Origin: Candidatus Undinarchaeota archaeon
Lineage (GTDB): Archaea > SpSt-1190 > JASMDC01
Reading direction: 5' to 3'
Length of the DNA: 64,000 bases
Assembly (NCBI GenBank): GCA_964519305.1
Contig: CAZFHY010000001.1
Coordinates: forward strand, 410,132 to 474,131
Below are positions 7,496 to 57,748 of the stretch, piece by piece (within the stretch, counting starts at the first letter, position 1; the number at the start of each line of letters is the position of its first letter). The notes below the pieces were generated by a model that was given only the letters and a program-made list of their open reading frames with translations, was not told the DNA's origin and did not search any database. A program made the position numbers and the translations under genes.

Positions 7496-7496
7496 G

Positions 7497-18756: not shown

Positions 18757-18767
18757 GTCTACGTGAA

Positions 18768-18798
18768 GCTCCGGGAGCGGTACTCACCCTCCCGGAGC
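18768..18798 (+). terminator. GC-rich hairpin after tldD copy 1
   Basis: gctccgggag...ctcccggagc, 10-bp stem. Confidence 0.55.
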
Positions 18799-18973
18799 AC
18801 CTCGATTTCGAGCAGGATTTCACTGTGTTTTTTCCGGCCGGGCCCGGACTGACACTATGTGTCACAGTCGCAGTCTCCCGATTCTTGGGCTCGGACATCG
18901 CCGTATGGTCACGATTACGTCATGACGACGTAAAGGAAAACTATATATTCCGCGCCTCGGGCCGCTGCTCCTC

Positions 18974-40322: not shown

Positions 40323-40829
40323 TCAGATCTCGAAACCTTCATCGAAACCGCCCTTGCGGAAGAACTCATGCATCCTACGTTGACGGGTCACTTCGTCCTT
40401 CTCCTTTTGAAATCGCTGCACACCGGCGACCAGTGACGCGAGCGCATGCTTCGCAGCATCGACAACTGTCCAAGCGAGCGCTACTGTGAGGACCAGCGCA
40501 AGAAGCGCCAGTAAAAAAGGGTCCTGGCCGAGCAAGGGTGCGTACAGGAGGGATACCGCTATGTAGGAAAGGACATTCGCAAAAAGGAACAGTCCCAGTA
40601 GGGTGAGCATAATGCCAGAACCACCACTACTCTCCGAAGGCCCTTTGGGTCGGTCCTCACCGGGCTTCGGACCGGACGAGCTCTTCTTACCACGTCGCGT
40701 TCCCGTGCGGTAGCTCCCGTCCTCCTCGACAAACACACGCGGTCCCGGCTCTTCCTCGATATCCCGCCCGATAGGTACGAAGGGCGGCATCTCCTTCTCC
40801 TCCTTGGGCTTACGCGGCATCTGGCCCAC
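40323..40829 (-). CDS. 2-TM membrane protein
   Basis: Charged N-terminus and two hydrophobic segments. Overlaps the stop of the upstream gene. Confidence 0.6.
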   Translation of the reverse strand: MGQMPRKPKEEKEMPPFVPIGRDIEEEPGPRVFVEEDGSYRTGTRRGKKSSSGPKPGEDRPKGPSESSGGSGIMLTLLGLFLFANVLSYIAVSLLYAPLLGQDPFLLALLALVLTVALAWTVVDAAKHALASLVAGVQRFQKEKDEVTRQRRMHEFFRKGGFDEGFEI

Positions 40830-43800
40830 CTCCCGTGCGCTGTCGTGCGAACAGTTCCGCCAACCGGGCTTCAGCCTCCGTCATCCGGGCCTCGACCGAA
40901 ATAGCGCACGCCAGATCATTGGCACGCAGGCATTCCACCTTCTCGTCAACCAAGGACTTCAGTGTGCTCAAGGCCTCGACCACCTCGTCATCCGTTGTAC
41001 CGGGGTGCGATGGCGGGGGTATCGTGACGTCCGGTGAAGGTTCTGTTGTAGGGGGCACAACCGTCGTCGACATCAGGTCGCGCAGAGCGCTGCTGAGGTC
41101 GTCGCCGAACCCGACGCGGTACTCGTCCCGTGTAGCGTTCGCCTGGTAGGAGCCTAGCATAGCGACCACCTTCTCGAGACGTGTGATACCCTTACCGGTC
41201 TCCAGATAGATTGGCCGGATATAGATCCAGTGCCGGCCGATGCGATAGAGGAGCATGTTACCTGGCTTGAGCGTTTCGCTCTCCTTAAGCCGTGCCCATT
41301 CCTGATACCGGGCATCACCTTTGTAGTTCCGCTCGATAGCTTGGTATGAGTAGAAGAGCCACCCGCCCTCGTCCCCGCCGGATTTGGGGAAGCGATAGAG
41401 GACGATATCACCGAAATGCGCAAGGTCATCCCTGAGGAAGGAGTTGCGCACTACGTACAATCCAACGAGACCTGTCTCGGTCTGCGTCTGGGCCTCTCCC
41501 TTGTCGAGCAATGCTGGCAGGATCCCCACGAACTCCGTGGCACCATCGTCCATCTGGAAGGGGGTGTAGTACATCGTCTGCTGCGAAGGGTCTGACTTGA
41601 AGAAGTCCAGCCCCTTGTAGTAGTCCTCGGGCATAGGGTGGAAGTCGAAGTGTTTGTGGGCGCGCCAGGTGAAGTACTGCTTGGGATACCGGAGCTGGCG
41701 CCGGACCTCGTCGGGGAGCTCCCGGCTGAGGTCGGGATACACGGAGCGGAGTAGTTGGGAGAGCTGGTCGTCGAAAGGTGCGTAGAGCTCGATCTCTCCG
41801 GTGTAGATATTGCCTAGTGCTATCACTGCGTACCGCGCGTATGCCTCTACAGGATCGCGGGAGCCCACACCACCAGTGACCTCCATTCGAGTAAGGGGGA
41901 TAAGGGCCGGATCGAGCGCGATGAACCCGTGCATGAGGAACCAGGTACTCCCCCGATAGGTGATCGGATAGGGATCGTTACCCTTGATGTCGAAGGGCTC
42001 GGTCGTGGCCAGCATGGGCAGCATATTGCGCAAGCGCAGGTCCAGCCGGCGTAAGAGCAGGAGCTTGAAACTGGATATATCACCCCTGTCGATGGCCTCA
42101 GCCCAGCGCCAGTAGAATGTCTCGTCCGATGGCACTCGCCACCGGCGCAAGGCGTTCGGGAACAGTCCGATATAATGTGCGTCATAGAAGAAAATGTCAG
42201 GGACGGGGACATCAAGGCCCTTACCCTCGTACGTGACCCCGCCGACCTCGGTCACCCCCTCCTCGGTCAGATAGCTCTCCAGAAGAGAGAAGTCCTCGTG
42301 GACCCCGTAGTACATCTGGTCCTCGGGATACGCGTTCTCAATACCATGACCTGTGTGGGCGTCCAGAGTCATGAAGCCCTGATCGGAGTGGGTGTAGAAC
42401 TGGTGGTTGTTGTAGAAGTCACCGTCCGTCACCTTGTCCCGTCGAAGAGGGAGCTCTACGGCCCAGAATGGTGCCATCCGACCATCCTCTTCTCGCACCA
42501 GGAAATCCTCGTTCCCGATATCCAAGTACGGTACCTCGCCCATGTTGCGATCGGTCCGCACACGGGCACGCTCACGGTCCCATAGGCGGACAGTGGAGAG
42601 CATGTCCGCGTTGGTGGTGAGGAAGTCTTCCTTGAACCTGAAGTTCTGACGGAGCGCCGCACCTCCGAGGTCGCTTACTTGGACGCTATCAACAGGGATG
42701 TCCGCAAGGTACCGATTGATGCTCAGGCCCGCCCGGATGAGGGTGTCATAATAGAGCTCTGGATGGCTCTGCACCTGGTTGTTCATGGGCGAGAGCACGA
42801 GACGATCTAGCACCGGTGCCAGCACGATGAACGCTACGAGCAGCCCTGCTATGAGCGCAATCGTCACCGACACCAACATCGCGGCCCGGGCGCCGTCCTT
42901 GTTCCCAGAGACACGGGCCATGACGTTAACGATGGTTCTGGCCAGGTCGAACCTGAGCACGACATAGGCCATCAGCATCCCGCCGAGCACGACCACCCAC
43001 CTGGCCATGAGGGTTATGATGGCAAGTAGGTTCGTCGGTGCAGTGGTCACACCGATGTCGCCCACAAGTGTCCGCAGACCAAGGTCCACGGAGGAAAGGA
43101 CCAACCAGGCGATTATGATGGTGAACAGCGCACGCGCCGTCGAGGAGAACACAGAGGTGTCGGTCCGTCGGGGGAGCACAAGCCAGATGAACGCGAAGTA
43201 GAGCAGAGTAGAGATTATCTGGGCTACGAGCGGAGTAAGGAGCGGGCCCACTAAGGTAAAGAAGAGGGCATTGTCAGTTACCAGTTCAGCGTACCGGGCA
43301 TGGTCGAACTGCTGCGCCTCCAGGCCGATGAGCCCCATGAGAGAGACGTACTCGGCAGGAAGGTGTTCCTTCGTGAGGATGGGGGCCAGGTGGAGCACGG
43401 CGATTTCGCGGAGGTCGGCGGGATCCGGGATAAGCTCGAAACCGTTCGTTTGTGCTTCGATTACGAATCCGGTCAGGTAGTATCGTTGTGCCTCGGGAAG
43501 GTCCAGCATGCCATGGAGGTCACCTGTGGCCGCCACAACGGACCGTGCACCGCCCATAATACCGAAGACCAGCATGAGGATGGCCAGCGAGTAGAACACT
43601 ATGACAGGCACGTGGTACATGGACAGGTCGATGACATCCCTCACTACAGGATCATCGAACGGCGCGCGGTCCGGTGTTCGCTTCTGGATCATCAGACGGG
43701 CCAGTGCCCAAGGGAGCACAAGGAAGAGTGGAACATACCTGAATGACAGGATGTGGAGATGATGGAGCAGCCCGTCCTTCTGCGCGAAGCGCTCTAGACG

Positions 43801-44178
43801 CATGCTCACCAGCGCCCACAGCACTAGCAGTCCCAGGCCGACCGGGAAGGAGAACCGCCAAGTACCCCATAGGAGGAGCATAAGACCGGGATCGAAGTGG
43901 AAGAAAGCAAGCCACGACACAAGTGCCCAGAGGGCCATGCCATTGACCGCCAAGGTGACCTGGCGCATGAAAGTACCGCCTCCGACAGGTACGTCCGTAC
44001 CGAGCACACGTATGGACTCGATACTGCCGTCCAGGATCGTGCCCTTCCATGCCAGATGGAGCATCTGTTGCTTGAAGGGCAGGTAGTGATTGAGATAGAA
44101 GCTGGTCAGGAGGAAAAGGCTCACGCCGAGGACGAGCAGGATGGCCTTCCCGCGGGGGCGGTTCCAAGTTTTCGCCAT
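40810..44178 (-). CDS. UPF0182-family membrane protein (large)
   Basis: ~10 N-terminal TM segments. VRLWD, NNHQFYTHS, DPY, QLRYP, LYRFPK, GNMLL and RPIYLE match UPF0182 motifs. Confidence 0.75.
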   Translation of the reverse strand: MAKTWNRPRGKAILLVLGVSLFLLTSFYLNHYLPFKQQMLHLAWKGTILDGSIESIRVLGTDVPVGGGTFMRQVTLAVNGMALWALVSWLAFFHFDPGLMLLLWGTWRFSFPVGLGLLVLWALVSMRLERFAQKDGLLHHLHILSFRYVPLFLVLPWALARLMIQKRTPDRAPFDDPVVRDVIDLSMYHVPVIVFYSLAILMLVFGIMGGARSVVAATGDLHGMLDLPEAQRYYLTGFVIEAQTNGFELIPDPADLREIAVLHLAPILTKEHLPAEYVSLMGLIGLEAQQFDHARYAELVTDNALFFTLVGPLLTPLVAQIISTLLYFAFIWLVLPRRTDTSVFSSTARALFTIIIAWLVLSSVDLGLRTLVGDIGVTTAPTNLLAIITLMARWVVVLGGMLMAYVVLRFDLARTIVNVMARVSGNKDGARAAMLVSVTIALIAGLLVAFIVLAPVLDRLVLSPMNNQVQSHPELYYDTLIRAGLSINRYLADIPVDSVQVSDLGGAALRQNFRFKEDFLTTNADMLSTVRLWDRERARVRTDRNMGEVPYLDIGNEDFLVREEDGRMAPFWAVELPLRRDKVTDGDFYNNHQFYTHSDQGFMTLDAHTGHGIENAYPEDQMYYGVHEDFSLLESYLTEEGVTEVGGVTYEGKGLDVPVPDIFFYDAHYIGLFPNALRRWRVPSDETFYWRWAEAIDRGDISSFKLLLLRRLDLRLRNMLPMLATTEPFDIKGNDPYPITYRGSTWFLMHGFIALDPALIPLTRMEVTGGVGSRDPVEAYARYAVIALGNIYTGEIELYAPFDDQLSQLLRSVYPDLSRELPDEVRRQLRYPKQYFTWRAHKHFDFHPMPEDYYKGLDFFKSDPSQQTMYYTPFQMDDGATEFVGILPALLDKGEAQTQTETGLVGLYVVRNSFLRDDLAHFGDIVLYRFPKSGGDEGGWLFYSYQAIERNYKGDARYQEWARLKESETLKPGNMLLYRIGRHWIYIRPIYLETGKGITRLEKVVAMLGSYQANATRDEYRVGFGDDLSSALRDLMSTTVVPPTTEPSPDVTIPPPSHPGTTDDEVVEALSTLKSLVDEKVECLRANDLACAISVEARMTEAEARLAELFARQRTGGGPDAA

Positions 44179-44182
44179 AGGT

Positions 44183-44641
44183 TCAGCCGCGCTTCCGTAC
44201 CTTGACAACGTCCCCGAGGGTGAGCGGGGCGTCATGGCTCTTGAGGGGCCCTACGTCCTCCTCTTCGAGCACGGCCACTAGCGTGATTTCCAGTTTCCGT
44301 TCGAGGCGGCGGGCCAGGGTGATCGGGGGTACCATGCGTCCTGCCTCGATGCGGGTAATCACAGACTCCTTCTCGTTGAGACGATCAGCGAGCTCCTTTT
44401 GTGTGATACCCATCCGTTCACGGGCCTGGTGCACCCGTAAGGCACATTCGGGGACGACCTCCTCCTCAGGCTTGCGTTTTGTGGGGATTCTCCTCACAGT
44501 ACGCTCTACAGGCCGCGGCTCGTAGGCAGGTCCTAGTCGGGCCCCCATGGAGGCGCAGTCCCTGCACACGGTGACGGTAGCACCCTCAAGGCGAATACGC
44601 TCGCCCCGGTGCATCTGACGTCCGCAAATCTCGCACTCCAC
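44183..44641 (-). CDS. mbf1: Archaeal multiprotein bridging factor aMBF1
   Basis: Zn ribbon CEICG...CRDC, HTH, and C-terminal LTLGDVV. Confidence 0.92.
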   Translation of the reverse strand: MECEICGRQMHRGERIRLEGATVTVCRDCASMGARLGPAYEPRPVERTVRRIPTKRKPEEEVVPECALRVHQARERMGITQKELADRLNEKESVITRIEAGRMVPPITLARRLERKLEITLVAVLEEEDVGPLKSHDAPLTLGDVVKVRKRG

Positions 44642-46037: not shown

Positions 46038-46371
46038 TAATACAATTTATTCTGAAAAAGACCCGTTTTCCGAGATTTTTTCGCGTCAATGACATAGTAT
46101 ATCCGTTACAATGTCGACGTACTGGGTATCGGACCACGGGATAAACACAGACCCTCAAAACCGGCGTAAAGCCCCCCGTTCAGTTCATATCCCCTGAGAA
46201 ACGCGCCATTCTCATCTAAACAGCCCCATTGGCGCCAGTTAATGTAACACAAAGACATGCTCAGGAATCAAGCGTCCCATGGCTGTTCCGAGAATCCTAT
46301 TTATACATGGGACAGCAGGTATCGTTAGGAGGTCCACTCCGTCATAGATGGGCCTACCTAAGGTGATCATC

Positions 46372-49300
46372 GTGAAATCCAGATATGTTATCTTGGCCGT
46401 TATGGCAGTGGTGTTAATGAGTGCCGTCCCCGTGAGCTCGGAAGAGGGCGGAGAGCTCGTGTGGTGCATCCACGAGTACGAACCCGACGACGAGTTCGCG
46501 AAGTGTAGCAACATCGAGGATGCGGCCACCCTTATGCCGGGAGAGTGCGGGATGCTCAGCATCATGAAGGGAGACTACTTGGAGGACAACGACGATTACA
46601 GCTGGAAGGCATGCTCCTACCTCTTCAATCTGGGGGAACAGGCCTATGTGGGTCAGGTGTGCGTCGCAAAAGGCTGGATGGCCAACAGCCCGACCCGCGA
46701 GGAGCTCAATCTACCGCCCTGCGAGGAAAATCCCCCAGTCGAGGGCTCACCCTTGATCCAAGAAGGGATGATCCCCGGTCTCAAGAAACCGAAGTTCGAG
46801 TCCGAGGCCGAAGTGGACGAGCTCAACGTCTCGCTCCTCGACTGCCCCGAGCAAGGGGGGGTTGACGCGGCCAACTACGAGAACATGGCCGAGTACGTCG
46901 ACGCGACAATCCTCTACTATGAGAACTTCCTCAAGTTCTTCAAGGAGCTCAACAACGATTTCCAAATCGTATATTCCGCTGTCAAGAAGCAATGCTCAAT
47001 ATGCGAGAGCAGCGTCGAGTCGTTCAACGAGAAATACGCCGTCTGTGGTATGCCCGAGCAGAAGATGGAGGACCTTCCCGCCCCCACTATCTGCTGGAAC
47101 GTGGCCAAGCCATTCTGTGAGCGGGGCTCCGTCTGCAACGAGGGGAGCGGAGGCCAAGCAGGGATGGTGAAGATGTGCAAGATGTGCGAGGCCATCCCGT
47201 GCAACTACGGAAAGGAGTGCGAGAAGGGTGTACCCGGACCCGACGGAGAGTGCTGGTCCAATGAGAACTTCTGCGGGACCGATGACACTATCGGCTCACC
47301 AGGCGACGACTTCGGAGCAGCTGGATGCAACCCGAAGCCCGATCCCTCCACAGTGGACATGGGCGGGTGCTGCATGGAGGCCATGGTCATCTGTCAGGCC
47401 AAGTACGGTGCCTACCTCGAGGCCTGGGGCGAGTGGAACGAGGAGCAGGAGGAGAACCCCACCCCTGATGAGGAACCTCAGGAACCTTTGTGCACGGACA
47501 TCTACCAGTACAAGGACGAAGCGTGCTTCCAGGATAGCCCCTCCCACATAATCGCGGAAGCGTGGCGGACCCTTGTGACCGAGAAGTCCAAGCGGGCCGT
47601 TGTCGCCCCCATTGGTGTGCGGGAGTGCGAGAAGAAGCTCGCCGACCTACGCGACATCTGCGAGATGGACAAGGACCAGATCGCCTGTGATGTCGAGAAG
47701 GACATGAAGAAGACCCTCAAGTACCTCAAGAACCTCCTCACCCAGATGCCCAAGGCCATCGGTGAGCTCAAGAAGGTGAAGTCCAAGTTCCAGACATCCA
47801 TCAATCAGGGTGCGTCCTACGTCGAGATCAAGAAGAACATGGACACGCTGGTCGCCATCATGGAGAACATCGACAAGCTCGAGAAGAGCGGCGACGAGGA
47901 GGAACTGGACACCGATAAGTTCCAGAAGCTGCTCACCAAGCTGGTCAAGTTCTTCCAGACGAGCGAGTTCTACACCGACCTCACCAAGAAGCACTCCTGG
48001 AACGCGGTGGCCTGCAAGCTCGATGCCGCAGGGTGCGATCTCGCATTCCCGGGAGGAACACCTAAGGAGATGAAGCACAAAGGCGATGGCTGCGACAAAT
48101 GGGGCGCGTTCTGTAGCAAGTGGAACGTGATCCCCGGTGGTGGCGGTCAGTCAGGTGACGAACAGAGCTTTGCTATGACGTCCATGATGATGAGCGGTAG
48201 CGGCGAGGGAGCTCCCATCCTAGGGTGCGGCGGGTACCGCGGTGGATGCCACCACGTCCCCCAGATGTTCCACTGGAAGGACCAGAACATGGACGAGTGG
48301 GGCGAGGTCCATATGGAAGCGCTCCAGGAGTTCCGTGAGCTCGACCTCCGGGACATGTTCGTCGATTCGGGAGAGTGCTTCCGTCACAAGATCCCTACTG
48401 TATCGCTGTGCGAGGACATCTGCAAGTCGTGCCATGGCACGTCCATTGCACACTGTCATGCCCAGCTGGGTCTGTGCGTTTGCCGGCTGGGTACCGAGTG
48501 GAAGACCACCGCGTACGAATGTCAGGAGCCCATCCACAACGACACGGACAAAGCGCAGTTCCAGGCATGCTGCGAGGCAATGTACGCCGATGTGAGCGCG
48601 CCCACGGCTGGTACGGGGATACCTCACGTCGTATACAGGCCCGGCGGCGGTACCGCTAATCGCCAGTGCGTGGTGGGGATGGACAAGAACTGCCTCTTCG
48701 ACAAGGAACTCTGCCCTACACCGGACCACGTCCTCAACGCAGGCCCCCTCTACGACTACTGTCAGACCAGCACATCAGAGACTGGCCTGTGCTGCAAGTT
48801 CGGGTTCGAGGAAAAACCTATCACCTACTCCTGCGCTGAGAGCGCGTCCTGTCGCAAAGGGTGTCAGGAGAAGTTCAGGGGGAACCCGCTACGTGTCGAC
48901 GAGTGCACTGCCCGGTGCATGGCGGCCGAGGTATCATGCGAGCAGCAGTGCCTGACACAATCCCTGGACATCCGTGAGGAGCGGAGGTGTATCTACGAGT
49001 GCTGGAAGCAGGAGCAGGAGGAGATGCCCGAGTACACGTTCGATTGCATCCGCAACTGTCGGCCTGACCAGAAGGACGAAAAAGTACAGGAGGTATGCCA
49101 GCGCATCTGCAAGGCGCTCGCACCGGAGCTCGATGTGCAACTATCAGCGCTACGCGGGGAGAGCGATGTCCAGGCATTCTATGCAGGTGAGGACATCCGG
49201 TTCAAGGCAGCTGTTGACAACAAGGGCTTCCTACCGTTCCGCGGACGGGCCGAGGTGAAGCTCAGGCTCTTCGATTCGTGCGACTGCCCGCCCTGCCCCG

Positions 49301-50526
49301 AGGGGGCAGTGTGCGAGTGTGCGTGCGATGACCAGTTCAGCGCCATCCTGGCAACGATCCCTGTTCCCTTGGTGGAACCAGGGGAGTCCTCGGTCCTACT
49401 CTCGGATCCCAAGGCAGTGGACGCGGGGCTCGCGGGCAAGACAGTCCAGCCCGTGATGGAGCTCTATGATGAGGACAACCGGTTGATACGCTCCGCACAA
49501 GGACCCATCTCGAAGGTCCTCGAGATGGGGAAAGTGGCCATACAGGACGCTTGGTTCGTCGTGGACGGCGAGCGTGACACGAAGGCCTATGCCGGCTCGA
49601 GGATCAAGGGAGCTATCAACGTAAAAGCCATCCTCTTCCCCATTACTGTATACGTATCCATGGTGGACGCGGACGGGAACGAGATCGAGGGCTCACGTAG
49701 CTCTATCGAGATCGAGGACGTGCTCGACGGTAGCCAGCTCGAGACGCTGGAGATCGAGACTCCCGCCCGGTACGTCGGGTTCGTGCTGCGTCTCCGTGTC
49801 GAGGCCATGGACGAGGACAATACGACCCTCCTCGCCGAGACCCTCACCGAACAGGGGCTCGCTTCCGACGCCTGTGCAGGCGACGTGATGACCGCATGGT
49901 GTCAGAAGGAGACCGTGGACTTCCGCATGGACTACCCCGACGCTTACCTCGAGATCCGCCGGCCTGAGCTGAAGCTCAATGAGGCGGTGTTCGAGACCAA
50001 GGACGGACTGTCATCGGCGGTCATGTACGAGGCGACCGAGGTGCGTGCCTCCATCAAGCTGTCGGACATCGCCACCATACCCTTCGAAGGGATGGTGACC
50101 ATCTCCGCTCTGGACTCTTGGTCCGTGGAGGTCGAGGGAAGCTCTCGACAGGTTGACATAACCCTCGCTGGCAAGCAGGATACTACGGCATGGTCGGAGT
50201 ACTTCACCGCAGAGCCCGGGAACACCTACGTGATCATGGTCCGGGCCACGGACCACCAGGGCCGGGAGTGGGCCATCGTTCCCACGTCTTCAGGCCTGGT
50301 GAATCCTGAGCTCTTCCCCCTTGCCCGGCTGGAGGCGAAGGAGAAGACTCTGGTACAGGGCGAGGCGACGTACATCTACTCGTCCATCAGCTACTCGGAC
50401 TGCAACATCCAGGTCGCGTGCGAGGAATGCCTGCCTACGTGCACCCTCTGGCTCCACCGTAAGTCGTGCACGATCAAATCTGATCCTGGCACCTGTGCCT
50501 GCGAGTGTATCAGCTCGGCCACATAG
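46372..50526 (+). CDS. Giant secreted Cys-rich protein, paralogue 1
   Basis: AGGTGAT RBS + GTG 46372, signal peptide, ~80 Cys by manual count, helical/coiled segments, three Ig/CARDB-like domains and no C-terminal TM. TATA at 46298-46305. Confidence 0.85.
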   Translation: MKSRYVILAVMAVVLMSAVPVSSEEGGELVWCIHEYEPDDEFAKCSNIEDAATLMPGECGMLSIMKGDYLEDNDDYSWKACSYLFNLGEQAYVGQVCVAKGWMANSPTREELNLPPCEENPPVEGSPLIQEGMIPGLKKPKFESEAEVDELNVSLLDCPEQGGVDAANYENMAEYVDATILYYENFLKFFKELNNDFQIVYSAVKKQCSICESSVESFNEKYAVCGMPEQKMEDLPAPTICWNVAKPFCERGSVCNEGSGGQAGMVKMCKMCEAIPCNYGKECEKGVPGPDGECWSNENFCGTDDTIGSPGDDFGAAGCNPKPDPSTVDMGGCCMEAMVICQAKYGAYLEAWGEWNEEQEENPTPDEEPQEPLCTDIYQYKDEACFQDSPSHIIAEAWRTLVTEKSKRAVVAPIGVRECEKKLADLRDICEMDKDQIACDVEKDMKKTLKYLKNLLTQMPKAIGELKKVKSKFQTSINQGASYVEIKKNMDTLVAIMENIDKLEKSGDEEELDTDKFQKLLTKLVKFFQTSEFYTDLTKKHSWNAVACKLDAAGCDLAFPGGTPKEMKHKGDGCDKWGAFCSKWNVIPGGGGQSGDEQSFAMTSMMMSGSGEGAPILGCGGYRGGCHHVPQMFHWKDQNMDEWGEVHMEALQEFRELDLRDMFVDSGECFRHKIPTVSLCEDICKSCHGTSIAHCHAQLGLCVCRLGTEWKTTAYECQEPIHNDTDKAQFQACCEAMYADVSAPTAGTGIPHVVYRPGGGTANRQCVVGMDKNCLFDKELCPTPDHVLNAGPLYDYCQTSTSETGLCCKFGFEEKPITYSCAESASCRKGCQEKFRGNPLRVDECTARCMAAEVSCEQQCLTQSLDIREERRCIYECWKQEQEEMPEYTFDCIRNCRPDQKDEKVQEVCQRICKALAPELDVQLSALRGESDVQAFYAGEDIRFKAAVDNKGFLPFRGRAEVKLRLFDSCDCPPCPEGAVCECACDDQFSAILATIPVPLVEPGESSVLLSDPKAVDAGLAGKTVQPVMELYDEDNRLIRSAQGPISKVLEMGKVAIQDAWFVVDGERDTKAYAGSRIKGAINVKAILFPITVYVSMVDADGNEIEGSRSSIEIEDVLDGSQLETLEIETPARYVGFVLRLRVEAMDEDNTTLLAETLTEQGLASDACAGDVMTAWCQKETVDFRMDYPDAYLEIRRPELKLNEAVFETKDGLSSAVMYEATEVRASIKLSDIATIPFEGMVTISALDSWSVEVEGSSRQVDITLAGKQDTTAWSEYFTAEPGNTYVIMVRATDHQGREWAIVPTSSGLVNPELFPLARLEAKEKTLVQGEATYIYSSISYSDCNIQVACEECLPTCTLWLHRKSCTIKSDPGTCACECISSAT

Positions 50527-50632
50527 GCCGTAGCATCGGAAGGTAATGCATGACAGGGCGGACATACCGGTGGCGCTGACCAGGAAACTTGGGAAGGGAG
50601 GGGGGCCTGGCCACCCCCCGGCACGTGCTACA

Positions 50633-53600
50633 ATGCTCACCACCACGCTCGTCCTCCTGGCTCTCCTGTCAATGAATCTCGCCCTGGCACCCTCTGCTTG
50701 CTCCCCGAAGCTGGAGCCGGGCATGGAGACCTGGTGCATCATGGAGACCGAGGGTGCGTCCGACGATTGTGAGTTGGAGGAAAGCTCTCCAGGAATGTTC
50801 TTCCAGTGCCGGGGCTCGGTGGGCCTCTACGACGGAGACAACGCTTGCTGGGAATCGGGCGAGGATTGTCTACCGGGCGAGGACTGTGAATGCGAGGACG
50901 AGTTCTCCGATGACGAGGCCGCTTGTGACTCCATCGCCATCTCAGGCCACAGCGTGGGCCACTGCGGTCCCCTGAGCATCGGTGGGGGCGACGGCGGCGG
51001 TGCGGACGAACAGTGCCGCCAGTCCTTCAAGATGAAGATCTGCACCTGGCAGTGCGCTTTCGGGGGCGACGGGTACGTGGGCGCGGTGTGCGTTGACAAG
51101 GGATATGGCGAGGCCAACGGCGGACCACGCCCCGACCTCAACCTCCGTCCCTGCGAGGAGAACCCCCTCACGGAGGGTGAACCGTACATCTGCAACACCA
51201 TGATCCCGGGACTCGGGAAGCCGGAGTATACCGGATACGAGCCCGATGAGCTCAACGTGAGCCTGCTCGACTGTCCCGAGGACGTGAGCAAGATCGCTGC
51301 TAACTACGAGAGCATGGCCGACTTCGTCGAGACCTCTATCGTCTATTACGAGAACTTCAAGAAGTTCTACACATCGCTGGAGAAGGACCTGCGCAACATC
51401 TACAACGCTGCGAAGAAGCAGTGCACTCTGTGCGAGAGCTCCATCGAGGAGTTCAACGACAAGTACGGTGGATGCGCGCTCGAGGTGGAGATCGGTGACC
51501 TCCCCTCGCCCAGCTCATGCTTCCAAACGTCCAAGTTCGCCTGCATGGACAAGGAGAAGTGCGTCGAGGGCAACAACGGGATGTCCATGTGTCAGTCGCT
51601 GTGCGATCCCTACCCGTGTAACTACGGGGACAACTGTGACACTCACGGTGTGCCCCGAAAGCCCGTGGGCGAGAAGCACGAGTGCTGGCACAACGACTAC
51701 TTCTGCGGTGACAACAAGGCCATCGGGCACAAGGACGACCATGGCGGCTTCAAGGGGTGCGACACTGGACGCGATACCGTCAATCCAAAGGGACAGATAT
51801 GCTGCTGCGTGCGGCCGTGCATCAACGAGGAGTTCGATCCCTACGGTTACATGAACGCGGGCTGCTACAGGCCTAACCACATCATCGCCGAGGCCTGGCG
51901 CTCACTGGAGACCAAGAAGGCCAAGAACAGCCGGCCGTCACCGCGCAAGATACGTAACTGTGCACACGAACTTGCCGACCTCCACGACGTGTGCGAGCTG
52001 GATGAGGTGAACGGGACACGCCTCAAGGACTACAATCCCGGGGACTACGCCTGGCCTCCGCCCCCAACCGAAGGGCACCACTGCGTCCACTCGCCCATCG
52101 ACTTCGCGGCGTTCCGCCCGCCGGCGTCCCAGGCAGAGGAGGACGAGAAGAGCTACAGAACGCCCTGCGAGGTGGAGTACCAGCTGGAGCGCATCCTCGA
52201 CTACCTTGGGCATATGCTCAAGGAGCTGCCCAAGATGATCGGCCAACTAGAGGCCGTCAGGGCCAAGTACCAGCTAAACGTTGAGCAGGGTGCGACCTAC
52301 ACCCATGTCCAGGATCACTTGGAAGAGCTGGCCGCCATCGCCCTGAGGATCGACAAGTTCGAGGCGGAGGATGGAAAGCCCGACCGTATCCGCAGTTCTG
52401 ACGAGTTCCAGGAGGAGACCACCGACATGCTCCTCTTCCTCCAGAACGACAAGCTCTTGGCCGACCTCACCACGTTCCGTCATAATTTCCCTTCCGAGGT
52501 CAGTAAGTTCTGCTCCGACGTGGAGATCCAGGACATCCACTTCCCGCCGGGCACGAACCCGCACCTGAAGTACAAGTCGGAAGAGGAGCCACCGAACGCC
52601 GATCCGCACCGCCAGTGGGCGATATTCTGTCGTAACTACAACGTCAAGGAGTGCGGGAAACGGCCCGAGGACAAAGAGCCCGGCGGCATGCCCCCGCTCC
52701 CCCAGCCAAAGCCGCCCGTCCCCGGGTGCGGAGGTTACCGTGGAGGGTGCGCTCCTCACGAACCGGCCATCGCCAACATCAAGGACATCAACATGGACGA
52801 GTGGGCCGAGGAGCATCTGGATACACTCGAGATCATCCGGGAGACCGATGTAGAGGACGTGTTCGTGGACACCCTTAGCTGCCTCGTCCATAAGATACCA
52901 AAGGTCTCGCTGTGCGAGGACGTGTGCAAGAAGTGCTATGGCACGACCATGGCGCACTGTCATGCCCAGCTCGAACTGTGCGTGTGCCGGCTGGGCACCG
53001 AGTGGAGGACGACCGCGTACGAGTGCGCTGATCCCACTCTCAATGACACCGACCGGGCGAGCATCCATGCCTGCTGCGAGGGGATGTTCGCAGACGTGTA
53101 CGAGCCCGGACCACGGTCACCTATCCCTTGGTCGGCCACGCGTGCCCTGTGCGGTGAGGGTGTGGAGGGCGACTGTCCGTTCAATCCCGAGCTGTGCGAG
53201 TCACCATCGCATGCCCTGAGCGGTGGACCGCTCTTCGACCGCTGTCAGACCGCGCGCTCCCCCATTGGGCTGTGCTGCCGGTACGGATTCGATGAACGAC
53301 CTGTAACGCTGAGGTGCATGGGCAGCTCCTCGTGCCGGACCGCATGCCATCGCCTGTTCGGTAGCAACCGCGAACGCACGGACGCGTGCACGCGTCGGTG
53401 CATGGGTGCCAAGGTGGCGTGCGAGCGGACCTGTGTCACTCAGTTCCCTGAGACCAAAGAGGCACGTGCCTGTGTCGATGACTGCTGGGAAGGAGAGGGG
53501 GAACGGGATTGGCCTGACACGACGTTCGAGTGCATCCTCAGTTGTCCGCGCGACGAGCGGGACACGGGGATTTGGGACATCTGTGCGCGCATGTGCAAGG

Positions 53601-55012
53601 CACTGACACCCGAGCTGACGGTGAGTTTAGCTACACTCCGTGGCCAGAGCGAGGTCCAGGCGCTCTATGGAGGTGAGAACGTGCGTTTCCGGGCGGATGT
53701 GGCCAACTCCGGATTCCTTCCATTCTACGGTCGGTCCGAGGTCAAGCTCCGGCTCTTCGATGCCTGCGACTGCCCATTCTGCCCGGAGGACGCCGTGTGC
53801 GAGTGCTCCTGCGAGGACCTGTTCTCCGCCATCATGGCCACAATCCCAGTCTCCTCCGTGGATCCTAACACCGATGTCACGCTACTCTCGAACCTGAAAG
53901 AGATGGACGAGGATCTGGTCGGTAAGACGGTGCAGCCGGTGCTCGAGGTGTACGACGAGCAGGGGAGGGCCATTGCCACGGCCATGGGTTCCATCTCGAA
54001 GGTGCTACCCATGGGCACTGTGGCCGTCCAGGACGCTTGGTTCACAGTGGACGGTGAACGAGCTACCAAGGCACATGCCGGTACCCGTGTCAAGGGGACC
54101 GTTACTGTGAAGTCCGCCCTCTTCCCACTTACAGTGTCCGTCTCCATGGTGGACTCAGAAGGACAAGAGGTCCCTGGATCACTGGCGTCGATCATGGTGA
54201 TGGACGTGCTCGAGGGCAGCCTGCTAGAGACGCGGGAGGTGGATACACCCGCAGAGTACGTCGGATTCGTGCTCCGACTCCGGGTGGAGGCCATGGACGA
54301 GAACAACGTGACGGTGTTCGATCAGGTCCTCCCTGAACAGGGCCTGCCCTCCGAATCCTGTTCCGGTGAGGTCATGACCTTCTGGTGTCTTGAGGACGCG
54401 CTCGAGTTCCGTATGGACTACCCCCAAGCGTATCTCGAGGTCACGCGGCCTGTGCTCAAGGTCTCCGAGGCAGGGTTCGAGACCGACGGGGGGCTCACTT
54501 CGGCGGTGTTCTATGAGACCACCCGTGTCCATGCCACCGTGGACCTGTCCGATATCGCGACAGTGCCCTTCGAGGGGATGGTGTCCGTCGCAGTAATCGA
54601 TGCCTGGTCACTGGCGGTCGAAGGGAGCAATGCCGACACACAGGTCGCTATCTGGGGTGAGGGATCAACGACCGTCATGTCCGGCCCCTTCATGGCCGAA
54701 CCGGGCAACTCCTATATGATCGTGGTGAGAGCCAGGGACGTTCACGGCCGTGAATGGGCCGTCGAACCGACGTCCCACGGTATCGTGAACGCGGACCTCT
54801 TCCCTCTCGCGCGACTCGAGGTACGGGAGCCGACTGTCGTACAGGGCGAGAGCGTGTTCATCGACCACGGCATCGACTACTCCGGCTGTATGCTCCGTGT
54901 GTCGTGCAACGACTGCCTGCCGACATGCACATTGTGGCTCGATCGGAAGAAGTGCCTCATCCGCACCGATCCCGGCTCCTGCGCCTGCGAGTGCACCGTT
55001 ACGGTCGGATAG
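50633..55012 (+). CDS. Giant secreted Cys-rich protein, paralogue 2
   Basis: Signal peptide MLTTTLVLLALLSMNLALA. Colinear with paralogue 1 (DELNVSLLDCPE, HIIAEAWR, GCGGYRGGC, LCVCRLGTEW, CLPTCTLWL). Confidence 0.85.
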   Translation: MLTTTLVLLALLSMNLALAPSACSPKLEPGMETWCIMETEGASDDCELEESSPGMFFQCRGSVGLYDGDNACWESGEDCLPGEDCECEDEFSDDEAACDSIAISGHSVGHCGPLSIGGGDGGGADEQCRQSFKMKICTWQCAFGGDGYVGAVCVDKGYGEANGGPRPDLNLRPCEENPLTEGEPYICNTMIPGLGKPEYTGYEPDELNVSLLDCPEDVSKIAANYESMADFVETSIVYYENFKKFYTSLEKDLRNIYNAAKKQCTLCESSIEEFNDKYGGCALEVEIGDLPSPSSCFQTSKFACMDKEKCVEGNNGMSMCQSLCDPYPCNYGDNCDTHGVPRKPVGEKHECWHNDYFCGDNKAIGHKDDHGGFKGCDTGRDTVNPKGQICCCVRPCINEEFDPYGYMNAGCYRPNHIIAEAWRSLETKKAKNSRPSPRKIRNCAHELADLHDVCELDEVNGTRLKDYNPGDYAWPPPPTEGHHCVHSPIDFAAFRPPASQAEEDEKSYRTPCEVEYQLERILDYLGHMLKELPKMIGQLEAVRAKYQLNVEQGATYTHVQDHLEELAAIALRIDKFEAEDGKPDRIRSSDEFQEETTDMLLFLQNDKLLADLTTFRHNFPSEVSKFCSDVEIQDIHFPPGTNPHLKYKSEEEPPNADPHRQWAIFCRNYNVKECGKRPEDKEPGGMPPLPQPKPPVPGCGGYRGGCAPHEPAIANIKDINMDEWAEEHLDTLEIIRETDVEDVFVDTLSCLVHKIPKVSLCEDVCKKCYGTTMAHCHAQLELCVCRLGTEWRTTAYECADPTLNDTDRASIHACCEGMFADVYEPGPRSPIPWSATRALCGEGVEGDCPFNPELCESPSHALSGGPLFDRCQTARSPIGLCCRYGFDERPVTLRCMGSSSCRTACHRLFGSNRERTDACTRRCMGAKVACERTCVTQFPETKEARACVDDCWEGEGERDWPDTTFECILSCPRDERDTGIWDICARMCKALTPELTVSLATLRGQSEVQALYGGENVRFRADVANSGFLPFYGRSEVKLRLFDACDCPFCPEDAVCECSCEDLFSAIMATIPVSSVDPNTDVTLLSNLKEMDEDLVGKTVQPVLEVYDEQGRAIATAMGSISKVLPMGTVAVQDAWFTVDGERATKAHAGTRVKGTVTVKSALFPLTVSVSMVDSEGQEVPGSLASIMVMDVLEGSLLETREVDTPAEYVGFVLRLRVEAMDENNVTVFDQVLPEQGLPSESCSGEVMTFWCLEDALEFRMDYPQAYLEVTRPVLKVSEAGFETDGGLTSAVFYETTRVHATVDLSDIATVPFEGMVSVAVIDAWSLAVEGSNADTQVAIWGEGSTTVMSGPFMAEPGNSYMIVVRARDVHGREWAVEPTSHGIVNADLFPLARLEVREPTVVQGESVFIDHGIDYSGCMLRVSCNDCLPTCTLWLDRKKCLIRTDPGSCACECTVTVG

Positions 55013-55081
55013 GACCGGCTGGACGCGAGCACAATCCATTTAAAAGTGGCAGGTACTAGCTCTAGAGCAAGAGTGATTATC

Positions 55082-55750
55082 ATGGGATTCCTCGACGGGA
55101 TACCGTTCTTCGGAAGAGAGAAGGAGGACCAGGTGCTGACGCTGATCCGTAAGCACATGACCGTGGCCAACAAGGCCGTGGTGGCGCTGGAAGAGTTCTT
55201 CGACGCTATAGGTGAATGCGACAAAGAGACGGCCAAGGCCAAGCTCGCCGAGATACGGAAACACGAGAACGACGCGGACACATTCGTCCACAGCATACAG
55301 GAGCTCCTGTACTCAGGCGCGTTCCTGCCCGTGTCCCGCAGCCGCATCATCGACCTCGTGGAGCGGGTGGACGACGTCGTGGACGAGGCCAAGGACGCCG
55401 CCCAGATCGCCATGCTCCTTCTGGACCGCAAGTGCGATCCCAGTATAGCCTCTATGCTCAAGCGCATGACGGAGCTTGGGAAGGACGCTACCGAGCTGCT
55501 GCTCTTCGCCTATGACGCGCTCCAGGACAGGCGCCCAGAGGACACCAAGCGCGTGATCAAGCAGATCGCGTCCAGGGAGGTGGAGGCCGACCAGCTCAAG
55601 GGGGAGCTGTACGAGAAGCTCTATGAGATCAACGATCCCATCCTACTCTTCTTGGTAGCAGGCATCGCCGACGCCACCGCCGGCCTCACCGACGCCACTG
55701 AGAACGCATGCGACGTGCTGGCGATCATGCTCATCGTCGGAACCGCCTAG
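55082..55750 (+). CDS. DUF47 PhoU-like phosphate transport regulator
   Basis: HENDAD, LYSGAFLP.SR, E.EAD and D.TENACD motifs. Upstream of PiT. Confidence 0.9.
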   Translation: MGFLDGIPFFGREKEDQVLTLIRKHMTVANKAVVALEEFFDAIGECDKETAKAKLAEIRKHENDADTFVHSIQELLYSGAFLPVSRSRIIDLVERVDDVVDEAKDAAQIAMLLLDRKCDPSIASMLKRMTELGKDATELLLFAYDALQDRRPEDTKRVIKQIASREVEADQLKGELYEKLYEINDPILLFLVAGIADATAGLTDATENACDVLAIMLIVGTA

Positions 55751-55769
55751 ACCACCTCTAAGAGCGACC

Positions 55770-56939
55770 ATGGACCCCCTCTCCCTGTGCATCATCCTGG
55801 CCGGCCTGTTCGTTGGCTGGAACATCGGCGCCAATGATGCATCGAACGCCATCGGCACCACCGTGGGCGGGGGCATCTTGACCTTCCGCCAGGCCGTCAT
55901 TATCGTCATCGTGTTCGCCATGCTGGGGTCGCTGCTGGAGGGGTACAAGGTCATGAAGACCGTCGGGAAGGGCATCGTGCCCCCTATCGCGTGCAAGGCC
56001 GACGACCAGTGCCTAAAAGTTGAGTACTACTGCGACCTCAAGGACGATACCACTGAAGGCATATGTCGGAGCAAGATCAACGGCCAGAAAATCATCTACC
56101 TGGAGAAGGACCGTCGAGCGGTCCTGGCGGCACTGATGGCTGCCGGTACATTTGTCATCTTCATCACCGCGCTGAAGCTCCCCACCTCCACAAGCCAGGC
56201 CATCGTCGGAGCCGTCGCGGGTGCCGGTATCGGCCTGAAGATGTTCGGAGGGATGACTACATCGATCAACTATCAGGTGCTCCTGAAGGTGTTCGCGAGC
56301 TGGGTGCTCACGCCCGTGGGTTCTCTCGTCATCGCCTACATCCTCTACTATCTCTTCGCCAACACCATCGCTAAGGTGGGCAACCAGGCGACGTCGGCCG
56401 AGCTCATCAAGTTACTAACCCTGCTAGCGGCCATCTTCGTCTCGTACAACATCGGTGCTAACGACGTGGCCAACGCTGTAGGCCCCATTGTCGGTGCAAA
56501 TATCCTGAGCGATGTCAATGTGGACTGGGAGTGGAGCTCACCCCAAGCAGGAGAGGTATCCCTCAAGCTGCATTTCCTACCGACACTGGTGGGTGCGTTC
56601 CTAGGGGGAATCACTATTGGGTTCGGGGCCGTGATGTTCGGGCGCGGTGTGGTCGAGACCATGGGCGGCGGCATCACCACCCTGGGTCCGCTGACGGCAC
56701 TGGCGGCGCAGTTCGCGTCAGCAATCACCGTCTACATATTCACCCAGCAGGGCATCCCCGTGTCCACCACCCAGGCCATCGTTGGCGGTGTCATCGGTGT
56801 GGGCCTCACCAAGGGCGTTTCCACGGTCAACATGCGAACCATCCGCAACATCATGCTCGGGTGGCTGGCAACCCCAACGTCCGCAGCGCTTCTCTCCTGT
56901 GGGTACTACTACCTCCTACGGTTCGTGTTCACCGGGTAG
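55770..56939 (+). CDS. PiT-family inorganic phosphate transporter with Cys-rich loop insertion
   Basis: GANDASNAIG and GANDVANAVG repeats, PTSTSQAIVG and PVSTTQAIVG. Confidence 0.93.
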   Translation: MDPLSLCIILAGLFVGWNIGANDASNAIGTTVGGGILTFRQAVIIVIVFAMLGSLLEGYKVMKTVGKGIVPPIACKADDQCLKVEYYCDLKDDTTEGICRSKINGQKIIYLEKDRRAVLAALMAAGTFVIFITALKLPTSTSQAIVGAVAGAGIGLKMFGGMTTSINYQVLLKVFASWVLTPVGSLVIAYILYYLFANTIAKVGNQATSAELIKLLTLLAAIFVSYNIGANDVANAVGPIVGANILSDVNVDWEWSSPQAGEVSLKLHFLPTLVGAFLGGITIGFGAVMFGRGVVETMGGGITTLGPLTALAAQFASAITVYIFTQQGIPVSTTQAIVGGVIGVGLTKGVSTVNMRTIRNIMLGWLATPTSAALLSCGYYYLLRFVFTG

Positions 56940-57023
56940 CGCGCGGCCTCCCCAAGGATAGGCTTTTAATTATACGTCCAGCCCGGCTACTTCAAGGGAA
57001 CTGATTCCCGTAAGGTGACAATC

Positions 57024-57716
57024 ATGGCGTTCAAGATGATCTACGATGCGCTGATGCGCGGCAGTGCGCTGGAGGACGCGTTCAATGAGATGGACAAGAT
57101 GAACGAGCAGAGCAAGTCCATGTTCCGAGACTCGTTCAACTGCCTCCTTGAGGACAAGTGCAACATCGCCGAACGCATCTGTGGCGAGGACAAGCTCATC
57201 AACCGTCTGGAGGTCGAGGTGCGTATCAAGGTGCTCACCTATCTGGCTTTCAACACCTCCCCCGACCTCGCCGGTGCACTCTACCTCAACGCCATCGTCA
57301 TCGACTATGAACGCATCGGTGACTACTGCAAGAACATAGCCCAGCTCAAGCTACTCTATCCGACGATCCTGGACGACGATCAGTACCGCAAGGACGTCAT
57401 CGCCATATTCGGTCGCATCATCAAGATGTTCGACCTCACGCGCGAGGCGGTGCAGGAGGACGATAAGGAAAAGGCCAAGACGGTGATGGGAATGCACGAG
57501 GAGGGCACGAAGCGCAAGCACGCCGACCTCGCCCGCAAGCTCACCGAGGACAAGGACATCGATCCGAACAAGGCTATCGTTTACGCCCTTCTAACCAACA
57601 ACCTCCGCCGGATCTCGGCGCACCTGCGTAACGTGGCTTCTGGTGTCGTGCAGCCCGTGTCACAGATCGGTTTCAATCCGGAGAAAGACAACCTCGGTAC
57701 AGAAGACGAGGAGTAA
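57024..57716 (+). CDS. PhoU domain protein
   Basis: EDKLINRLE, DYERIGDYCKNI and RRISAH motifs. AGGTGA RBS. Confidence 0.85.
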   Translation: MAFKMIYDALMRGSALEDAFNEMDKMNEQSKSMFRDSFNCLLEDKCNIAERICGEDKLINRLEVEVRIKVLTYLAFNTSPDLAGALYLNAIVIDYERIGDYCKNIAQLKLLYPTILDDDQYRKDVIAIFGRIIKMFDLTREAVQEDDKEKAKTVMGMHEEGTKRKHADLARKLTEDKDIDPNKAIVYALLTNNLRRISAHLRNVASGVVQPVSQIGFNPEKDNLGTEDEE

Positions 57717-57748
57717 GAAAATGAGCCCGATCCCAAAACGGTGAGACC

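What the first reader, a model, noticed from the sequence alone, without database searches (positions are those of the whole stretch)
46372..55012. Tandem pair of giant, unanchored, disulfide-rich secreted paralogues of unknown family (best candidate for a new system)
Seen: two adjacent co-oriented genes of ~1,385 and ~1,460 aa, each with a signal peptide and about 80 or more Cys. They share a module order: variable Cys-rich head, long amphipathic helix, Cys-rich insert, second long helical block, GCGGYRGGC, defensin-like unit, CX3C hairpins, three Ig/CARDB-like domains (one carrying a CDCP.CPE.AVCEC.C loop), and an 8-Cys C-terminal cap. Neither has a TM anchor, lipobox or catalytic motif that I can see. 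The N-terminal heads and internal loops diverge while the scaffold is conserved. Inference: two subunits of a heteromeric extracellular assembly (filament, sheath, adhesin, or pore/fusion device) with variable recognition tips. I do not recognise the family.
Basis: partly seen in the sequence, partly recalled or inferred. Interest (0 to 1): 0.85.

Follow-up and report, generated by a model that had tools for sequence, protein, structure and literature searches.

The report
Giant cysteine-rich archaeal surface protein pair
Two neighbouring genes of an uncultured marine archaeon encode giant, secreted, disulfide-rich proteins that belong to a large, previously undescribed family whose other members carry enzymes that cut bacterial cell walls, so the pair is most likely part of the cell's equipment for touching or attacking bacteria rather than a stand-alone two-part machine.

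Summary
Window 46348-50526 and 50546-55012 (+) encode 1392-aa and 1488-aa paralogues that are 47% identical. They have 79 and 89 Cys, 74 of them aligned. Each has a Sec-type signal and no other hydrophobic segment, and neither matches Pfam, NCBIfam or PHROGs.

They are not a private pair. The same genome holds 19 full members of the family (1081-2846 aa). Six of the 19 carry murein hydrolase domains (M23, NlpC/P60, SLT), five of them with intact catalytic motifs. One carries C-type lectins and one FG-GAP repeats. The genome has no Mur ligase. Ten of the 19 lie within three genes of a recurring module: a ~930-aa secreted protein plus a ~600-aa protein with a type IV pilin signal. The window pair does not.

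The pair is old and constrained: it is conserved with its synteny in a sister genome, both orthologues occur in a third organism, and dN/dS is 0.06-0.09. The family is very rare, with 30 clusters among 1.84 billion proteins.

Best reading: these are enzyme-free binding or spacer members of a surface scaffold family aimed at bacteria. The heteromer idea was neither supported nor excluded. Unchecked notes from earlier in this scan describe similar pilin + Cys-rich giant + wall-cutter sets in other DPANN and Patescibacteria genomes.

The parts
46300..46305 (+). TATA-like hexamer TTTATA, 43-48 nt upstream of the gene 1 ATG. It lies in the 441-nt gap to the divergent NTP-transferase gene.
   Evidence: Read by eye. 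It was not tested statistically.
46348..50526 (+). Gene 1: 1392-aa secreted Cys-rich family A protein (P0001).
   Evidence: dN/dS against the sister genome is 0.057.
46348..46440 (+). Gene 1 Sec-type signal peptide (res 1-31): basic n-region, hydrophobic core, PVSS.
   Evidence: Sequence. It is the only hydrophobic segment. No signal-peptide predictor was available.
46441..46794 (+). Gene 1 acidic Cys-rich head (res 32-149). Fold unknown.
   Evidence: pLDDT is below 50. It is shared only with gene 2 and their orthologues.
46795..47223 (+). Helical block 1 (res 150-292), including a 54-residue helix at res 180-233. Family-wide.
47224..47586 (+). Cys-rich insert (res 293-413) between the two helical blocks. 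It is absent in minimal paralogues, where blocks 1 and 2 abut.
   Evidence: C15, C7 and C9 members; consensus.
47587..48027 (+). Helical block 2 (res 414-560). It packs with block 1 into a helical bundle in the model.
48223..48603 (+). GCGGYRGGC motif, a helix, and a Cys-stabilised helix/hairpin unit: CEDICKSC...HCH...CVC (CX3C ... CXC).
   Evidence: Model helix 96-104 and strands 109-133. The unit is present in about half of the 26 rows aligned.
48826..49119 (+). Six short helices carrying six CX3C motifs (res 827-924).
49129..50283 (+). Three Ig-like beta-sandwich domains (res 928-1052, 1055-1165, 1200-1312). The first carries the CDCPPCPEGAVCECAC loop.
50326..50523 (+). C-terminal 8-Cys cap (res 1327-1392). 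Together with the third Ig-like domain it is the most widely shared module.
   Evidence: It lies at the C-terminus of 18 of 19 family members and is also matched in four other ORFs of the genome, there mostly without the 8-Cys end.
50546..55012 (+). Gene 2: 1488-aa paralogue (P0002), 19 nt after gene 1. It has the same module order, an extra ~75-residue N-terminal Cys-rich extension, and a 46-residue insertion in helical block 2.
   Evidence: dN/dS is 0.088.
53594..55009 (+). Gene 2 C-terminal module (res 1017-1488): three Ig-like domains plus cap.

Best explanation
The two genes form one bicistronic unit encoding two old paralogues of a lineage-restricted family of giant, Sec-exported, disulfide-stapled extracellular proteins, here called family A.

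The family scaffold runs in this order:
- signal peptide
- variable head
- a helical bundle made from two sequence blocks that tolerate insertions between and after them
- a Cys-stabilised helix/hairpin unit
- six CX3C helices
- three Ig-like domains
- an 8-Cys cap

In other members the variable positions hold murein hydrolases, most with intact catalytic motifs, C-type lectins or FG-GAP repeats. The organism has no murein ligases. I therefore read the family as a scaffold that holds binding and wall-cutting modules against bacterial cells.

The window pair are the enzyme-free members, and I infer that they act as adhesive or spacer components. The conserved Ig3 + cap end is inferred to be the retention or docking module. 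Its probable partner is the recurring pair of a ~930-aa secreted protein (B) and a ~600-aa type-IV-pilin-like protein (C).

Shown: the genes, the family, the domain order, the payloads in paralogues, and the conservation.
Inferred: surface retention, docking to B/C, bacteria as the target, and the binding role of the pair.
For: Family and anatomy:
- There are 19 full members in the genome. All have an N-terminal signal and no C-terminal anchor.
- Helical blocks and the C-terminal module are shared family-wide.

Payloads (all 19 members scanned):
- 6 of 19 carry murein hydrolase domains; 1 carries three C-type lectin domains; 1 carries FG-GAP repeats.
- The M23 HxxxD/HxH motifs are intact in 3 of the 4 M23-bearing members, the NlpC/P60 Cys in 3 of 4, and the SLT Glu-Ser is present.
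- 4 of the 5 M23 matches in the genome lie inside this family.
- No Mur ligase domain was found in a genome rated 99.83% complete.

Link to the pilin-like module:
- C proteins begin with R-[GA]-Q followed by a hydrophobic helix.
- B and C are adjacent at 20 of 22 B genes.
- 10 of 19 family A genes lie within three genes of a B or C gene.
- One family A member contains a copy of the C globular domain (E 1.6e-54).
- One B-C pair follows a T2SSE-type ATPase gene on the same strand.
- Prepilin peptidase and T2SSE/T2SSF genes are present.
- The Ig3 domain, in one case with the Cys-rich end as well, is also matched in four other ORFs of the genome, three of them next to B or C genes.

The pair is real and constrained:
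- dN/dS is 0.057 and 0.088 at dS of about 0.52.
- Pair and synteny are kept in the sister genome.
- The duplication predates three organisms (tree).

Precedent: archaeal secreted peptidoglycan hydrolases that kill bacteria are documented (PMC12352652; abstract and section 6 read).
Against: - Neither window protein has any detectable enzyme, lectin or other known binding domain, so its role rests on its relatives.
- The pair has no B or C gene nearby, and 9 of 19 members lack one. Four of the six hydrolase-bearing members are among those nine, so the link to the pilin-like module is not general.
- No binding to B, C or bacteria has been shown.
- The head gave only a low-confidence model, so a hidden activity cannot be excluded.
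- The pair sits among housekeeping genes and evolves slowly. This fits a structural envelope role at least as well as a conflict role.
- No expression data were found.
Confidence: 0.5

Rival explanations
1. One reading: the two paralogues are the two subunits of one heteromeric extracellular assembly (filament, sheath, pore or fusion device) that works on its own.
For: - The genes are adjacent, co-oriented and 19 nt apart.
- The pair is kept as a pair in the sister genome, and both orthologues exist in a third organism on the same contigs.
- The duplication is old and both copies are under purifying selection.
Against: - The family has 19 members. Nine stand as single family members at their locus, and others form arrays of two or three, so pairing is not a family trait.
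- There is no membrane anchor or fusion-loop-like hydrophobic segment.
Confidence: 0.12
2. The pair are the organism's main envelope (S-layer-like or sheath) proteins. The enzyme-bearing paralogues are later derivatives that reuse the same envelope-insertion module.
For: - Selection is strongly purifying along the whole length.
- Synteny is stable in a housekeeping neighbourhood: a nucleotidyl transferase upstream and phosphate transport downstream.
- The pair has its own TATA-like element.
- No payload domain was found.
- Large, acidic proteins built of Ig-like domains are typical of archaeal envelopes (recalled knowledge).
Against: - There is no match to any S-layer family in Pfam or NCBIfam.
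- No TM, lipobox or archaeosortase-type end is conserved across orthologues.
- In the C-terminal tree the pair is nested inside the family rather than basal, although the root is arbitrary.
- No abundance data exist.
Confidence: 0.15
3. They are freely released antibacterial proteins. The conserved Cys-stabilised helix/hairpin unit (CX3C ... CXC, as in CS-alpha/beta defensins) binds a bacterial envelope target such as lipid II, and the rest is a carrier.
For: - The CX3C ... HCH ... CVC pattern is conserved in about half of the aligned family rows.
- The model places a helix and a hairpin there.
- There is no anchor.
- Paralogues attack murein.
Against: - The unit was not folded or searched on its own, so the resemblance rests on Cys spacing and secondary structure only.
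- 1400-residue carriers are unlike any known defensin-type peptide.
- The lipid II link is recalled knowledge about fungal defensins, not a result here.
Confidence: 0.08

Closest known systems
Secreted modular peptidoglycan hydrolases of archaea (Strock et al. 2025, PMC12352652; abstract and section 6 read)
   Same: Archaeal, signal-peptide-bearing proteins with M23 and other murein hydrolase domains in organisms without murein. They are proposed, and for two enzymes shown, to act on bacteria. Six of 19 relatives of the window pair fit this description.
   Different: - The published enzymes pair a catalytic domain with a known wall-binding domain.
- Here the catalytic domains are inserted in 1300-2350-aa Cys-rich scaffolds of a new family, with no known wall-binding domain detected.
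- The two window proteins themselves have no catalytic domain.
Type IV pilus tip complexes of bacteria: minor pilins plus the large non-pilin PilY1/PilC
   Same: A large secreted non-pilin protein is encoded beside proteins with a type IV pilin signal, in a genome with pilus ATPases and prepilin peptidases.
   Different: - There is no sequence or fold match to PilY1.
- The pilin-like partner here has a ~570-aa globular part.
- The window pair has no pilin-like neighbour.
- No pilus has been shown.
Giant Gram-positive adhesins built of tandem Ig-like repeats (Cpe0147 repeats 4mkm, antigen I/II C123 6e3f, PrgB Ig-like domains 8beg)
   Different: - TM-scores are below 0.31 and sequence identity is 8-12%.
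- The same scores are reached by glycosidase accessory domains and complement MG domains, so this is a shared fold class only.
- There is no LPXTG-type anchor, and no ester or isopeptide motif was examined.
Sulfolobales S-layer pair SlaA/SlaB (recalled)
   Same: Two adjacent genes for large extracellular envelope proteins, one of about 1400 aa rich in beta-sandwich domains.
   Different: SlaB is membrane-anchored and unrelated to SlaA. Here both proteins are paralogues, unanchored, and contain 6% Cys. No sequence match was found.
Coiled-coil-regulated murein hydrolases PcsB / EnvC type

Membership tests
Family A (the new family defined here) | N-terminal Sec-type signal, two helical blocks, and a C-terminal module of three Ig-like domains plus an 8-Cys cap at the very end. 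| tested here: met
   Both window proteins carry all of these features. There are 19 full members in the genome.
Modular peptidoglycan hydrolase | A recognisable murein-cleaving catalytic domain (M23, NlpC/P60, SLT, glucosaminidase, CHAP, amidase). | tested here: not met
   Pfam at E <= 1 and NCBIfam at E <= 0.01 give none for P0001 or P0002. The feature is met in 6 of 19 paralogues. The low-confidence head leaves a hidden fold possible.
Archaeal type IV pilin / class III signal protein | N-terminal [KR]-G-[QAS] cleavage motif directly followed by a ~20-residue hydrophobic helix. | tested here: not met
   The P0001 and P0002 N-termini are Sec-like, with no such motif. The motif is present in the separate C family. 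The consensus used is recalled.
S-layer protein families / anchored envelope proteins | Match to a described S-layer family, or a TM, lipobox or archaeosortase-type anchor. | tested here: not met
   No Pfam or NCBIfam match and no second hydrophobic segment. 'PSAC' after the signal of gene 2 is kept in the sister genome but not in P0005.
S-layer protein families / anchored envelope proteins | Very high abundance and lattice formation. | not testable with these tools
   No RNA or protein data. The run search listed DNA holders only.
CARDB / Ig-like domains | Sequence match to PF07705, or a beta-sandwich fold. | tested here: inconclusive
   There is no Pfam CARDB match at E <= 1. The model has three confident beta-sandwiches that match many Ig-like domains. 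The ESM Atlas lead to a CARDB cluster scored only 0.76.
CS-alpha/beta (defensin-type) fold | A helix carrying CX3C, disulfide-linked to a strand carrying CXC. | tested here: inconclusive
   The spacing CEDIC ... CVC is present and conserved, and the model has a helix plus hairpin there. Disulfide pairing was not examined and the unit was not searched on its own.
HAP2/fusexin class II fusogens | Three-domain class II fold with fusion loops and a C-terminal TM anchor. | tested here: inconclusive

The most novel reading that the evidence does not exclude
Family A, the ~930-aa B proteins and the pilin-like C proteins together form an undescribed, type-IV-pilin-linked archaeal surface apparatus, present in about twenty variant loci per genome. 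It presents murein hydrolases, lectins and other binding modules to bacterial cells. That would make it a contact-dependent antibacterial, predatory or episymbiotic device in an unusually large-genome relative of the Undinarchaeales. The window pair would be its most conserved, enzyme-free structural members.
Probability: 0.3. Interest if true: 0.85.

Novelty: new variant of a known kind. Interest (0 to 1): 0.62.

Why it matters
How archaea physically engage bacteria is almost unknown. Secreted archaeal wall hydrolases were shown to kill bacteria only in 2025 (PMC12352652), and the enzymes studied there were simple ones.

This work defines a new protein family with a conserved disulfide-stapled scaffold. 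The scaffold carries up to three wall-cutting domains per protein and is repeated about twenty times in one genome, often beside pilin-like genes. If the scaffold is a display or delivery device, it gives a concrete, testable molecular handle on archaeon-bacterium contact in marine waters, and a set of new antibacterial enzymes.

The pair itself shows what the bare scaffold looks like without payload, which makes it the natural starting point for structural work.

Tried and rejected
- **Complex prediction** on the C-terminal 472 residues of each window protein: score 0.00, no verdict. It says nothing for or against binding.
- **Sequence libraries** for P0001 and P0002. Pfam gave only sub-threshold noise (HD_3, BLOC1_2, TRIM_CC, EzrA). 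NCBIfam and PHROGs gave nothing. A PDB sequence search with profile A1 gave one chance-level hit at E 0.64.
- **ESM Atlas.** The whole protein gave a weak CARDB lead (0.76). Residues 140-925 gave no usable hit.
- **The search for related loci** with alignment A1 was not possible. With a single protein it found only the sister genome.
- **Sequencing runs:** no RNA holder was listed, only marine DNA metagenomes.
- **VKOR** was not found in the genome, so the route of disulfide formation is open. The thioredoxin/CcdA-like membrane protein 7 kb upstream was not followed.
- **Methanogen check:** no McrA.
- **Literature.** Four word searches found no description of this family. Supplements of the papers read were not opened.
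Full report
**Observation**

The window holds two co-oriented ORFs, 46348-50526 (1392 aa, P0001) and 50546-55012 (1488 aa, P0002), separated by 19 nt.
- They are 47% identical over 1425 aligned columns.
- They contain 79 and 89 Cys, of which 74 are in shared columns.
- Each begins with a basic/hydrophobic Sec-type signal and has no other hydrophobic segment.
- A TATA-like TTTATA lies 43-48 nt before gene 1, and a separate TTTAAAA lies between gene 2 and the next gene. Both were read by eye. I therefore read the two genes as their own bicistronic unit.

**Not a private pair**

A search of the window's own genome (3.63 Mb, 42 contigs, rated 99.83% complete) with P0001 found about twenty large open frames sharing its C-terminal half.
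- Local phmmer and jackhmmer on all ORFs give 19 full members of 1081-2846 aa, plus four partial, more distant matches.
- All 19 have an N-terminal signal. 18 of 19 end in the same 8-Cys cap.
- The genome as a whole is crowded with giant Cys-rich ORFs.

**Anatomy**

AlphaFold2 with an alignment of 26 family sequences gave a usable model of res 593-1392 (mean pLDDT 75.9). It shows, in order:
- a disordered linker
- a helix plus beta-hairpin unit on the conserved pattern CX3C-x2-C ... HCH ... CVC
- six short helices carrying six CX3C motifs
- three confident beta-sandwich domains
- a small beta cap

The model of res 32-640 (pLDDT 58.3) is confident only for long helices (res 180-233, 421-487, 495-546), which pack as a bundle. 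The head is unresolved.

Family comparison shows that the two helical blocks (res ~150-292 and ~414-560) abut in the smallest members and are separated by inserts in others. The bundle is therefore a core that tolerates insertions.

No sequence library recognises either window protein.

**What the relatives carry**

I scanned all 19 members with Pfam.
- Six carry murein hydrolase domains:
  - M23 + SLT (C19 locus)
  - M23 (C10, 99 kb)
  - NlpC/P60 (C6; C10, 31 kb)
  - M23 + NlpC/P60 plus a sub-threshold glucosaminidase match (C10, 38 kb)
  - M23 + NlpC/P60 (C12)
- One has three C-type lectin domains (C20), and one has FG-GAP repeats (C15).
- Eleven, including the window pair, have nothing above threshold.

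The catalytic motifs are mostly intact (motif definitions recalled):
- HxxxD and HxH are present in three of four M23 domains.
- The NlpC/P60 Cys is present in three of four domains.
- The SLT domain has its Glu-Ser.

Four of the five M23 matches in the whole genome lie in this family. The genome gave no Mur ligase match, so the organism is unlikely to make murein or pseudomurein. The wall that these enzymes cut would then belong to other organisms; this step is inference.

**A recurring partner module**

Neighbourhood clustering revealed two further expanded families.
- B has 22 members of about 920-1090 aa plus one 678-aa member. They are secreted, carry about 27 Cys, and share the conserved end GNPGNW..N....C.
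- C has 21 members of about 590-770 aa.
- Most C N-termini read R-[GA]-Q followed by a ~20-residue hydrophobic stretch. This is the archaeal class III (type IV pilin) signal as I recall it.
- B and C are adjacent at 20 of 22 B genes. They usually lie beside a giant Cys-rich ORF, either of family A or of another family.
- Ten of 19 A genes lie within three genes of B or C. Nine do not, among them the window pair and four of the six hydrolase carriers.

Three further links between A and the module:
- One A member contains a copy of the C globular domain (res 348-753, E 1.6e-54).
- The Ig3 domain, in one case with the Cys-rich end as well, is also matched in four other ORFs of the genome (three giants and an 875-aa protein), three of them next to B or C genes; the profile search also matches it in a trio of giants on contig C7 that follows a B-C pair.
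- One B-C pair follows a T2SSE-type ATPase gene and a 726-aa ORF on the same strand.

The genome also has further T2SSE and T2SSF genes and four prepilin peptidase matches.

**The pair through time**

In the sister genome G001 the two genes and the downstream phosphate-transport genes are in the same order. A third organism supplies orthologues of both (P0004 63%, P0005 60%).

In a maximum-likelihood tree of the C-terminal module, the pair and its orthologues form one clade (support 100/100). It splits into gene 1 (96/92) and gene 2 (95/89) groups, so the duplication predates these organisms (22 rows, midpoint root for drawing only).

Between G000 and G001, dN/dS is 0.057 and 0.088 at dS of about 0.52, and no 100-codon window exceeds 0.28. 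The heads differ between the paralogues, but they are not fast-evolving tips.

**Distribution**

- A scan of 1.84 billion representative proteins with res 193-1392 found 30 clusters at E <= 0.001. Each has its best match in one of the 19 paralogues, at 23-100% identity.
- Among 41 related genomes, only the own genome and the same-genus genome have the family.
- With the family profile, the figure is 2 of the 17 genomes held for the phylum.
- The sister genome's record is titled as a Candidatus Undinarchaeales archaeon.
- Class-level relatives in the collection have 0.6-1.2 Mb genomes, and published Undinarchaeales bins are 0.37-0.62 Mb (table passage in PMC7414124). This 3.6-Mb lineage is therefore unusual in itself.

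**Reading**

The most economical account is that family A is a surface or extracellular scaffold.
- The conserved C-terminal end serves retention or docking, probably to B/C or to the envelope.
- The helical bundle and the Cys-stapled units form a rigid stalk.
- The variable positions hold the working parts.
- Where the working parts can be named, they bind sugars or cut bacterial walls.
- The window pair has the scaffold without a nameable payload. I take its members to be adhesive or spacer components of the same equipment (confidence about 0.5).

Remaining alternatives:
- The pair could instead be the cell's own envelope proteins. Slow evolution, a housekeeping neighbourhood and the absence of a payload fit that reading, and I cannot exclude it without abundance data.
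- A defensin-like targeting role of the helix/hairpin unit is an attractive but untested idea.

**Known comparisons**

- Secreted archaeal peptidoglycan hydrolases are documented in about 5% of archaeal genomes, and two kill a bacterium (PMC12352652; abstract and section 6 read).
- A metagenomic study notes murein-like lytic transglycosylases in three DPANN bins (PMC10634959; passages only).
- Neither describes giant Cys-rich scaffolds or pilin-like partners. Four word searches found no description of this family.
- Unchecked notes from earlier in this scan report similar gene sets (pilin-signal protein, Cys-rich giant, wall cutter) in Woesearchaeota and Patescibacteria. A look-up by sequence found no look-alike of the window protein among them. 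Homology between those sets and this family is therefore open.

**Limits**

- No experiment, expression data or signal-peptide predictor was available.
- The complex prediction gave no verdict.
- Several modules were never searched as single domains.
- The gene set used for neighbourhood counts is my own greedy ORF call, not an annotation.

Noticed in passing
G000, many contigs (e.g. C19:1070-12084, C15:29781-39027, C7:54680-86793, C10:90741-105112): About twenty loci combine a ~930-aa secreted protein (22 genes), a ~600-aa protein with a type IV pilin-like signal (21 genes), and one to three giant Cys-rich ORFs of several families.
   Followed up: partly
G000:C1:22048-29964: A 2638-aa family A member contains, at res 348-753, a copy of the globular part of the pilin-like C protein (E 1.6e-54). 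This fusion ties the two families together.
   Followed up: partly
G000:C11:61164-73556 and G000:C1:224716-249852: A 4130-aa ORF with 636 Cys (15.4%) and an 8378-aa ORF. About 70 ORFs of 900 aa or more have at least 3% Cys.
   Followed up: no
whole genome G000 compared with G002-G016: The genome is 3.6 Mb (its sister 3.8 Mb), while all 15 class-level relatives held are 0.6-1.2 Mb. The sister's record is labelled Undinarchaeales, a group published with genomes below 1 Mb.
   Followed up: partly
window 37572-39155 (-): A 527-aa protein with a thioredoxin-fold segment (res 161-209) and a C-terminal membrane domain matching SfLAP below its cut-off. It is a candidate extracytoplasmic thiol-disulfide protein in a genome with a very Cys-rich secretome and no VKOR match.
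   Followed up: no
window 40810-44235 (-): A 1141-aa protein with a partial UPF0182 match, next to an HTH regulator (44183-44641).
   Followed up: no
window 16666-20983 (+): Two tandem PmbA/TldD-like paralogues of 696 and 669 aa. As I recall, the usual size of this family is about 450 aa.
   Followed up: no
window 6101-9545 (+): An ABC-2 type permease is followed by a 682-aa protein with NPCBM-associated, CARDB and Ig-like domains.
   Followed up: no
G000:C2:1045-10170: A T2SSE-type ATPase (767 aa), a 726-aa ORF with no Pfam match, a B gene (951 aa) and a C gene (658 aa) lie in a row on one strand. This is a possible complete assembly locus for the pilin-like module.
   Followed up: partly
window 55046-58858 (+): A phosphate uptake cluster (PhoU_div, PHO4, PhoU, Na/Pi cotransporter) lies directly after the pair and is kept there in the sister genome. 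It appears to have its own TATA-like element.
   Followed up: partly
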